Below are positions 3,519-5,547 of a DNA stretch of 13,102 nt, piece after piece. Position numbers and translations under genes: made by a program. The notes below the pieces were generated by a model. It saw nothing but the letters and a program-made list of their open reading frames with translations. It did not search any database and was not told the origin of the DNA. Source of the stretch: Promethearchaeota archaeon (GTDB lineage Archaea > Asgardarchaeota > Lokiarchaeia > Sigyniarchaeales > Promethearchaeaceae); contig WJKO01000536.1 in assembly GCA_014729055.1 (NCBI GenBank), positions 1 through 13,102 on the forward strand, given 5' to 3'. Each line of letters starts with the position of its first letter. The first letter of the stretch is position 1.

Positions 3519-4805
3519 ATGTTAAATCAAATAGCATCCATAGGATTACTTTTTCTCATTCCGATATTGATATTCCTTATTATCGGTGCCACATACTGGA
3601 AAGGTCTCACCGTGGTACCGTTTAATGAAGTACATGTCGTATCAAGGAGCAAAAAAGTATCAACCTATGATGGAAAAGGAAGGTATTTTTTTATACCATT
3701 TTTACACGGAAGAACTATAATTCCCAAACATGTCTTAGATATCGAACCAGAATTAATCAAACTTCATGATATGGACAATCTGCCATTCGGTGTGGAAGTT
3801 TCGGTAAAGGTTCAAGTGACAGATCCAGAAAAAGCAGCGGCAACTCTAACGAGTATCGATCATAACACGGTCAAGAAGGTTGTCGAAGACACAGTTATGT
3901 CCGCAGCACGCAGCATTGCCATGGAGCGAGAGATATTGCAGATAATGAAGAGAAGAGAGGATATAGAGGCGGCAATTTACGATATGGTAGCCGATGCACT
4001 TTCAAAGCTAGGATTATCTGCGATTATTTTCGATATCAAAAATATACGCGACATAGAGAATAGCGATGTTATAAGCAGTCTTGAGGCGGTAAAGATTGCA
4101 GAACTCCGAAAAAATGCGAGGATTTCCGAAGCAACACACGACAACGAAGCAAAAATTATTGAAGTAGAAAAACGCAAAAATAGTACGGTAAAAGCAGAAC
4201 AGATGAAACAAGAAGAAGAGGATGCACGATTACAAAGAGAGCGTGAAATGGCTAAACAACAACGGGCAGTTGAAGAAGAAAAATTGAAAATAGAAGAACA
4301 AAAAGCTGCAAAACTGGCGTCAATAGCACGAAATAAAATGAAGATCATGGCCGAAGCTGAGCGTGAAAAAAGGTTAAATGAAGCAAAGGCTGAGGCAGAT
4401 GCCATTAGACTTAGGGCGGAAGCAGAGAGCAATGCTATTAAACTAAAAGCTGAGGCAGAAGCAGATGGGATCAGAAAGCGGGGTGTTGCGGAGGCTGATG
4501 TTCTGAAGAAAAAGGCAGAAGCTATGAATATATCAAGCCAAGCAGGACAAATCAAGATGCTGGAGGTGTTAAGCAAAGCACAAGTTGAATCGGCGGGGAA
4601 AATAGCAGATTCATTAGGAGCAAATAACAAGATCATGTATTTACCTGTCGGCAATGGTTCTAACTTCATGAGTTCTTTTATGCCCAAAATCGATTCATTA
4701 CTTCAATCAGGATTGTTGGACGAAATTTTGCAGAAATTCGCAAAAAGCTCTTCTAAAAATAGAAAAAAGAAATCTAGCAAAACGAAATCCAAGAATGATG
4801 AATAG
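3519..4805 (+). CDS. Flotillin-like SPFH/band-7 family membrane scaffold protein
   Basis: It has an N-terminal TM helix (IASIGLLFLIPILIFLIIGATYW) followed by an SPFH core (VVPFNEVHVVSRSKKVSTYDGKGRYFFIPFLHG...VEVSVKVQVTDPEKAA). A long Glu/Ala-rich coiled coil typical of flotillins follows (AEAEREKRLNEAKAEADAIRLRAEAESNAIKLKAEAEADGIRKRG), ending in a Ser/Lys-rich tail (SSSKNRKKKSSKTKSKNDE). Confidence 0.85.
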   Translation: MLNQIASIGLLFLIPILIFLIIGATYWKGLTVVPFNEVHVVSRSKKVSTYDGKGRYFFIPFLHGRTIIPKHVLDIEPELIKLHDMDNLPFGVEVSVKVQVTDPEKAAATLTSIDHNTVKKVVEDTVMSAARSIAMEREILQIMKRREDIEAAIYDMVADALSKLGLSAIIFDIKNIRDIENSDVISSLEAVKIAELRKNARISEATHDNEAKIIEVEKRKNSTVKAEQMKQEEEDARLQREREMAKQQRAVEEEKLKIEEQKAAKLASIARNKMKIMAEAEREKRLNEAKAEADAIRLRAEAESNAIKLKAEAEADGIRKRGVAEADVLKKKAEAMNISSQAGQIKMLEVLSKAQVESAGKIADSLGANNKIMYLPVGNGSNFMSSFMPKIDSLLQSGLLDEILQKFAKSSSKNRKKKSSKTKSKNDE

Positions 4806-5547
4806 TGTATATTTTTTTATTATTCATCTTTTATTTTTTATGGGTTATATTCAATTTCATACAAAAAAAGTCAAGTGCATAAAAATGGTCAAAATTCCCG
4901 TTGGTGAAAAAGTAAGAGTAAATCTCTGGGACTCTGACAAAAAACGCGGACTTGTCAAATATTTTACCCACACAATGAATTTAGTAAATGCAGAAAGTGA
5001 TTTTAGGCTCGAAAAAGGCGATACCGCAATTGTAATAAAATCATTTGATTCATTTGTTGTCATTATACCTGAAGATAAATACAGCAAGATTCTTGATGTT
5101 TCACAAAAAACTAAGGTGGATCGTATTGGATTATCTGAAGTGGTAACCAAAATATTATTGGATTGGGATGAAAAATCGGGCGGGATCTTGTCCATTATGG
5201 AACTATTAGAGTTAATTCATAAGACAAGTCTAAAATATTTTGTCAACAGAAAAGATTTGAAAAATTTAAGGAAAGTGAAAGATCGTAGTTATGACATTAT
5301 CAAGGACAGCGGTGATTTGTATTTTGTTTTAAAACCTTCGAAAACATCTTCTGATATTGTAAATGTTCTTAAATTCGCACAATCTAAGGACTATATCAAC
5401 TTTCAACAACTTCAAACGAAGTTCTATTGGTCTAAACTAAGAATTGAGCGCAATCTTGATTATTTAGTAGAGGAAAAAATAATGAGAGTGGCTACAAATT
5501 ATCGCTCCGGAACGCGTTATTATTTAATTGGAAAACCGCAACTATAA
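4795..5547 (+). CDS. Membrane-anchored NfeD-like OB-fold (beta-barrel) protein fused to a C-terminal tandem winged-helix region resembling ESCRT-II Vps22/EAP30
   Basis: The ATG at 4795 overlaps the flotillin stop by 11 nt and encodes a hydrophobic segment (SVYFFIIHLLFFMGYIQF). An alternative start is the ATG at 4885 (MVKIPVGEKVRV...). Residues about 30-95 (IPVGEKVRVNLW...VNAESDFRLEKGDTAIVIKSFDSFVVIIPE) fit the short NfeD beta-barrel pattern (G.V......G.V...a.S.g..i.kG..v.V....g..l.V). Residues about 130-250 align by eye with human SNF8/Vps22. GGILSIMELLELIHK matches GGLITLEELHQQVLK, NRKDLKNLRKVK matches SQDDLIRAIKKLK, and YFVLKPSKTSSDIVNVLKFAQSKDYINFQQLQTKFYWSKLRIERNLDYLVEEKIMRVATNYRSGTRYYL matches YLIQSVPAELNMDHTVVLQLAEKNGYVTVSEIKASLKWETERARQVLEHLLKEGLAWLDLQAPGEAHYWL. 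Confidence 0.6.
   Translation: MMNSVYFFIIHLLFFMGYIQFHTKKVKCIKMVKIPVGEKVRVNLWDSDKKRGLVKYFTHTMNLVNAESDFRLEKGDTAIVIKSFDSFVVIIPEDKYSKILDVSQKTKVDRIGLSEVVTKILLDWDEKSGGILSIMELLELIHKTSLKYFVNRKDLKNLRKVKDRSYDIIKDSGDLYFVLKPSKTSSDIVNVLKFAQSKDYINFQQLQTKFYWSKLRIERNLDYLVEEKIMRVATNYRSGTRYYLIGKPQL

What the first reader, a model, noticed from the sequence alone, without database searches (positions are those of the whole stretch)
3519..5547. Flotillin gene overlapping a membrane-anchored NfeD-like beta-barrel fused to an ESCRT-II Vps22/EAP30-like winged-helix module
SPFH-family genes are classically paired with an NfeD partner (for example yuaF-floT), so a flotillin followed by a TM + OB-fold protein is expected. 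Here the partner gene overlaps the flotillin stop by 11 nt (ATGATGAATAG), suggesting translational coupling. What is not expected is its C-terminal half: the NfeD-like region continues into about 120 aa that align block by block with the tandem winged-helix core of eukaryotic Vps22/SNF8 (EAP30 domain). A scaffold protein that organises membrane microdomains, physically paired with an ESCRT-II-type WH protein that carries an NfeD anchor, is to my knowledge not a described architecture. It would be a candidate for a membrane-remodelling or cargo-sorting module. It lies outside any canonical ESCRT locus (no Vps25, ESCRT-III or Vps4 nearby).
Basis: partly seen in the sequence, partly recalled or inferred. 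Interest (0 to 1): 0.78.

Follow-up and report, generated by a model that had tools for sequence, protein, structure and literature searches.

The report
Flotillin paired with NfeD–Vps22-like fusion

Summary
The window is a complete 13.1-kb contig from a Lokiarchaeota MAG.

**Confirmed**
- 3519-4805 encodes a flotillin-like SPFH protein (Band_7 E 1.6e-23).
- The downstream protein has a Vps22/EAP30-type tandem winged helix. Pfam EAP30 hits 22 of 22 family members, and the family profile hits human SNF8 at E 7e-9.

**Not confirmed**
- The transmembrane anchor and the 11-nt overlap are not real features.
- All relatives start at MVK(I/V)P, which corresponds to ATG 4885.
- The 30-codon extension is found only in this window and is a read-through of a T-rich 79-nt spacer.
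- The true product is a soluble 220-aa protein.

**New here**
- The Band_7 gene sits directly upstream on the same strand in 11 of 11 evaluable lineages, with spacers of 0-118 nt. These include Lokiarchaeum ossiferum and a Hodarchaeales MAG. Other neighbours vary.
- One variant replaces the winged helices with a zinc ribbon and keeps the flotillin link.

**Proposed mechanism (inferred)**
The barrel docks on flotillin assemblies and displays an ESCRT-II-like adaptor.

No paper in the searched library describes this architecture. I rate it a new variant of known kinds.

The parts
3519..4805 (+). Flotillin-like SPFH gene (428 aa). It has an N-terminal membrane segment (residues 5-23, bases 3531-3587), an SPFH/Band_7 domain (residues 32-207, bases 3612-4139), then a long charged, Ala/Glu/Lys-rich stretch and a basic tail.
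   Evidence: Pfam Band_7 E 1.6e-23. Best solved relatives are human flotillin-1 at E 2e-20 and E. coli QmcA at 2.6e-11. NCBIfam FloT matches residues 240-384 at E 1e-17, far below the equivalog cut-off. Kyte-Doolittle 19-residue maximum is 2.88 at residues 5-23.
4795..4884 (+). Non-conserved 30-codon upstream extension of the second ORF. It is an artefact of reading the longest ORF.
   Evidence: Absent from NCBI's gene model and from all family members. Seven of nine related loci have an in-frame stop 3-6 codons upstream of the conserved ATG.
4806..4884 (+). T-rich 79-nt spacer between the two genes, with oligo-T runs straight after the flotillin stop. It may hold an archaeal terminator or attenuator and/or an internal promoter. 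Its function is not established.
   Evidence: Composition is 38 T, 27 A, 7 C, 7 G. Oligo-T runs also follow the flotillin stop in L001, L006 and L008. The bacterial-type scan found no hairpin terminator. Spacer length ranges from 0 to 118 nt across lineages.
4885..5547 (+). True partner gene: a soluble 220-aa protein (NCBI locus tag GF364_14055, annotated 'hypothetical protein') made of an NfeD-like OB barrel, a linker and a tandem winged helix.
   Evidence: P0001 is a 100% match to the 220-aa model. Family alignment A2 has 22 sequences. The AlphaFold2 model has mean pLDDT 89.2 and pTM 0.79.
4909..5070 (+). N-terminal five-stranded beta-barrel (residues 9-62), an NfeD-type OB fold. Invariant residues are V10, L14, W15, G22, T30, S38, L42, G45 and P62.
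5122..5331 (+). Winged helix 1 (residues 80-149) of the Vps22/EAP30-like core.
   Evidence: Model secondary structure. Pfam EAP30 aligns residues 83-198 to profile positions 92-213 of 219. SNF8 alignment.
5347..5526 (+). Winged helix 2 (residues 155-214) of the Vps22/EAP30-like core.
   Evidence: The top Foldseek hits are 3cuq_A (human VPS22), 3cuq_B (VPS36) and 1u5t_A (yeast Vps22).

Best explanation
The region holds a conserved two-gene module specific to Asgard archaea. The first gene encodes a membrane-inserted flotillin-type SPFH scaffold. The second gene starts at 4885, not 4795. It encodes a soluble 220-aa adaptor whose N-terminal NfeD-type OB barrel is joined by a short linker to a Vps22 (ESCRT-II)-type tandem winged helix.

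Shown here:
- the identities of the three domains;
- the true start and the absence of any transmembrane segment;
- the strict gene pairing across Lokiarchaeia/Promethearchaeota and Hodarchaeales.

Inferred:
- As in classical SPFH-NfeD pairs, the barrel docks onto the cytoplasmic SPFH face of the flotillin oligomer. Flotillin therefore supplies the membrane anchor that canonical NfeD proteins carry themselves.
- Each flotillin assembly would then display many copies of an ESCRT-II-like winged-helix module.
- That module would recruit a partner, most plausibly Vps25, ESCRT-III or canonical Vps22. This would couple flotillin microdomains or cages to membrane remodelling or cargo sorting.
- The two genes are probably co-transcribed. 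The variable T-rich spacer may tune the ratio of the two products.
For: Domain identities:
- Band_7 E 1.6e-23 and flotillin-1 E 2e-20.
- EAP30 hits 22 of 22 family members, best E 5.5e-12.
- The family profile against PDB gives human SNF8 at 7.3e-9 and yeast Vps22 at 1.4e-6.
- The Foldseek top five are all ESCRT-II Vps22 or Vps36 chains.
- The nearest sequences outside the family, among those whose names were looked up, are canonical Asgard Vps22. They include the cluster of HeimAB125_14050, which has been studied experimentally (Hatano 2022, PMC9192718).

The barrel:
- The model is confident, with pLDDT 89.
- The next beta-barrel hits are Mpa OB domains. No Sm or Hfq protein appears in either list.

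True start and solubility.

Synteny:
- Band_7 lies directly upstream on the same strand in the window, L001/2/3, L004/5, L006, L008 (Lokiarchaeum ossiferum B35), L011/12, L013/14 (Hodarchaeales MAG), L015/16, L017, L018/19 and L020.
- Spacers are 0-118 nt, and all other neighbours differ.
- In L017 the barrel is fused to a zinc ribbon instead of the winged helices and still abuts the flotillin gene. This points to the barrel as the flotillin-linked module.

Background: SPFH genes form operons with NfeD genes and co-evolve with them (Hinderhofer 2009, PMC2636767). From my own recollection of Tan et al. 2024 (Structure 32:1603), which I could not read here, the OB domain of YbbJ caps the SPFH domain of QmcA.
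Against: - No sequence-level link of the barrel to NfeD was found. Pfam NfeD gives no hit at E <= 10. hhalign against a low-diversity YbbJ alignment and against YqiJ gives probability below 2%.
- The only sequence hints are insignificant Sm/Hfq-like matches.
- The barrel lacks the transmembrane helices that define NfeD proteins and that, in QmcA-YbbJ, contribute to assembly.
- No ESCRT gene lies near the pair in any locus, so any ESCRT connection rests on homology of the winged-helix module alone.
- The N-terminal helical or steadiness-box region, through which Vps22 dimerises or contacts ESCRT-I, is missing.
- The window protein itself scores below Pfam's EAP30 gathering threshold (19.3 against 26.8 bits).
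- No physical interaction, expression or co-transcription data exist.
- The 79-nt oligo-T spacer in this window could terminate transcription.
Confidence: 0.6

Rival explanations
1. A flotillin accessory protein with no ESCRT function. The NfeD-like barrel binds flotillin. The tandem winged helix is only a generic protein-binding or nucleic-acid-binding module that descends from Vps22. It might be a regulator sequestered at the membrane, or a client or cargo adaptor for flotillin.
For: - No ESCRT genes lie within about 5 kb in any of the loci.
- The Vps22 N-terminal helical region is absent.
- The C-terminal module is exchangeable for a zinc ribbon in L017.
Against: - Sequence profiles single out EAP30/Vps22 rather than DNA-binding winged-helix families: 22 of 22 members hit EAP30, while MarR or HTH families hit one or two members each at E > 0.007.
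- In PDB only SNF8 and Vps22 are significant.
- The nearest outgroup is canonical Asgard Vps22.
- The tandem arrangement matches ESCRT-II chains over about 140 columns.
Confidence: 0.27
2. The N-terminal barrel is an Sm/Hfq-like or generic OB nucleic-acid-binding domain. On this view the protein is an RNA- or DNA-binding factor, and its resemblance to NfeD is convergent.
For: - Weak Pfam Hfq hits in 5 of 22 members, best E 0.037.
- The barrel profile against PDB gives archaeal Sm-like proteins at E 0.17 and 0.71.
- There is no sequence match to NfeD.
Against: - All the Sm/Hfq hits are statistically insignificant.
- Neither structure search lists an Sm or Hfq protein above the two NfeD domains.
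- The model has no N-terminal helix of the kind typical of Sm folds.
- Strict adjacency to a flotillin gene in 11 of 11 lineages is the hallmark context of NfeD, not of Sm proteins.
Confidence: 0.06
3. One reading: a 250-aa protein anchored by an N-terminal transmembrane helix, translationally coupled to flotillin through an 11-nt overlap.
For: The maximal ORF starts at 4795 and overlaps the flotillin stop. Its first 19 residues just reach a hydropathy of 1.67.
Against: - The extension is unique to this contig.
- All relatives begin at the Met equivalent to 4885.
- Seven of nine related loci carry in-frame stops just upstream of it.
- NCBI's model is 220 aa.
- The extension is coded by a T-rich intergenic spacer.
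Confidence: 0.03

Closest known systems
SPFH-NfeD operon pairs: B. subtilis yuaF-floT, E. coli yqiJ-yqiK and qmcA-ybbJ, P. horikoshii PH1510-PH1511
   Same: A flotillin or stomatin-type SPFH gene lies directly next to a gene encoding a five-stranded OB-type barrel, on the same strand and often with tiny spacers. The barrel superposes on the YuaF and PH1510-C NfeD domains. Pairing is conserved across divergent genomes.
   Different: The barrel has no transmembrane helices and no ClpP-like protease domain. It sits at the N-terminus rather than the C-terminus. The Pfam NfeD profile does not recognise it. It carries a C-terminal tandem winged helix, which no described NfeD has.
ESCRT-II subunit Vps22/SNF8 (EAP30, PF04157), including Asgard Vps22 (asCOG cog.002769; HeimAB125_14050)
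   Same: It has a tandem winged-helix core with significant sequence and structure similarity. It occurs in the same Asgard lineages.
   Different: It lacks the N-terminal helical or steadiness-box region, which an OB barrel replaces. It is not encoded next to vps23/vps28/vps25/ESCRT-III/vps4. It forms a distinct family: members score at least 160 bits, while canonical Vps22 scores at most 59 bits. Hatano 2022 reported a single Vps22/36-like gene per Asgard genome, so this would be an unrecognised divergent paralogue.
Eukaryotic Vps36 (GLUE domain plus tandem winged helix)
   Same: The layout is analogous: an N-terminal beta-rich targeting domain followed by an ESCRT-II tandem winged helix. 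This is an analogy only.
   Different: The beta domain is an OB barrel, not a split PH/GLUE domain. The sequence is closer to Vps22 (E 7e-9) than to Vps36 (E 0.15). Nothing here indicates lipid, ubiquitin or Vps28 binding.
SPFH genes in 'Meth_adaptin' ESCRT loci of methanogenic archaea (Makarova et al. 2024, PMC10936438)
   Same: There is a genomic link between an SPFH protein and ESCRT-related components in archaea.
   Different: In those loci the SPFH gene sits inside a Vps4/ESCRT-III/adaptin-appendage locus. Here the link is a domain fusion in a two-gene module away from any ESCRT locus, and it occurs in Asgard archaea.

Membership tests
NfeD (PF01957; SPFH operon partner) | Soluble five-stranded OB-type beta-barrel | tested here: met
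NfeD (PF01957; SPFH operon partner) | Sequence match to the NfeD profile | tested here: not met
   No PF01957 hit at E <= 10 in 22 members. hhalign against a YbbJ alignment, YbbJ alone and YqiJ gives probability below 2%. The YbbJ alignment had low diversity, so this test is weak.
NfeD (PF01957; SPFH operon partner) | Transmembrane helices that anchor the protein | tested here: not met
   The maximum 19-residue hydropathy is 1.14 or less in all 22 members. The apparent transmembrane segment in the window is a non-conserved ORF extension.
NfeD (PF01957; SPFH operon partner) | Gene adjacent to and co-directional with an SPFH gene | tested here: met
   Found in 11 of 11 evaluable lineages, with spacers of 0-118 nt.
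NfeD (PF01957; SPFH operon partner) | Physical binding to the SPFH partner | not testable with these tools
   No complex prediction or experiment was available.
ESCRT-II Vps22/EAP30 (PF04157) | Tandem winged-helix core homologous to Vps22 | tested here: met
   EAP30 hits 22 of 22 members, best E 5.5e-12. The window protein alone scores 19.3 bits, below the gathering score of 26.8. The profile against PDB gives SNF8 at 7.3e-9 and yeast Vps22 at 1.4e-6. Foldseek gives 3cuq_A at E 4e-7.
ESCRT-II Vps22/EAP30 (PF04157) | N-terminal helical domain (in Asgards, a steadiness box) preceding the winged helices | tested here: not met
   The Pfam alignment starts at profile position 92 of 219. Residues 1-62 form a beta-barrel.
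ESCRT-II Vps22/EAP30 (PF04157) | Genomic association with vps25, vps23/28, ESCRT-III or vps4, as described for Asgards | tested here: not met
   None of these genes occurs in the 13.1-kb window or within about 5 kb in the other loci read.
ESCRT-II Vps22/EAP30 (PF04157) | Assembly with Vps25 (and Vps36 or a second Vps22) into ESCRT-II | not testable with these tools
   Needs interaction assays or complex modelling.
Flotillin / SPFH (PF01145) | SPFH (Band_7) domain | tested here: met
   E 1.6e-23 over residues 32-207.
Flotillin / SPFH (PF01145) | N-terminal membrane anchor | tested here: met
   Kyte-Doolittle 19-residue maximum is 2.88 at residues 5-23.
Flotillin / SPFH (PF01145) | Flotillin-type extended helical region after SPFH, and closest relatives that are flotillins | tested here: met
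   The best solved relative is human flotillin-1 at E 2e-20, ahead of QmcA at 2.6e-11. The FloT model matches residues 240-384 at E 1e-17 but far below the equivalog cut-off, so this is not a FloT orthologue.
Sm/Hfq-like barrel | Significant match to Sm/LSm/Hfq profiles or structures | tested here: not met

The most novel reading that the evidence does not exclude
The family is a previously unrecognised second ESCRT-II-type subunit of Asgard archaea and a functional analogue of Vps36. Its beta-domain would target it to flotillin cages rather than to PI3P or ubiquitin. Its winged helices would pair with canonical Vps22 and/or recruit Vps25 and ESCRT-III. Flotillin assemblies would then nucleate ESCRT-dependent budding, vesicle formation or membrane repair. 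This would place a direct flotillin-ESCRT connection in the archaeal lineage from which eukaryotes arose. It would also give a molecular handle on the SPFH 'baskets' and vesicles now being seen in Asgard cells.
Probability: 0.2. Interest if true: 0.85.

Novelty: new variant of a known kind. Interest (0 to 1): 0.66.

Why it matters
SPFH-NfeD pairs are widespread, but what the NfeD barrel does remains poorly understood. ESCRT-II in Asgard archaea is thought to consist only of Vps22 and Vps25, and nothing is known about how it finds membranes.

A conserved, soluble fusion of an NfeD-type barrel to a Vps22-type module, always encoded behind a flotillin gene, suggests three things:
- The NfeD barrel alone is enough to address a protein to a flotillin scaffold.
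- Asgard archaea couple flotillin microdomains to an ESCRT-II-like adaptor.
- The flotillin-ESCRT links reported in eukaryotes (cited in PMC10936438) may have archaeal antecedents.

The module is present in Lokiarchaeum ossiferum, which is in culture, so these ideas can be tested directly.

The case also shows how T-rich archaeal spacers can produce false transmembrane extensions when the longest ORF is taken as the gene.

Tried and rejected
1. **Sequence detection of NfeD.**
   - Pfam scans at E <= 10 on 6 and then 22 members found no PF01957.
   - A barrel-only profile against PDB sequences found only insignificant Sm-like hits.
   - hhalign against E. coli YqiJ, YbbJ and a YbbJ alignment was negative.
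   - The database search seeded with the YbbJ soluble domain returned only enterobacterial relatives of at least 57% identity. The NfeD profile was therefore too shallow for a fair test, and that search was poorly spent.
2. **First structure model.** It used six sequences and left the barrel unresolved, with pLDDT below 50. The model from 22 sequences fixed this.
3. **AFDB50 fold search.** The library was unavailable.
4. **The search for related loci with the 22-sequence alignment.** With the six-sequence alignment it found one genome locus and two metagenome loci.
5. **Bacterial-type promoter and terminator scan.** It was uninformative for an archaeon, with 0 terminators and promoter-like sites at chance level.
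6. **NCBIfam scan of the partner.** It returned nothing meaningful.
7. **The QmcA-YbbJ structure paper.** It is not held in the library. What I say about it is from memory.
8. **Rejected readings.** These were the 250-aa transmembrane-anchored ORF, an alternative ATG at 4840 (also not conserved), and a MarR-type regulator reading of the winged helices, which is not favoured by the profile searches.
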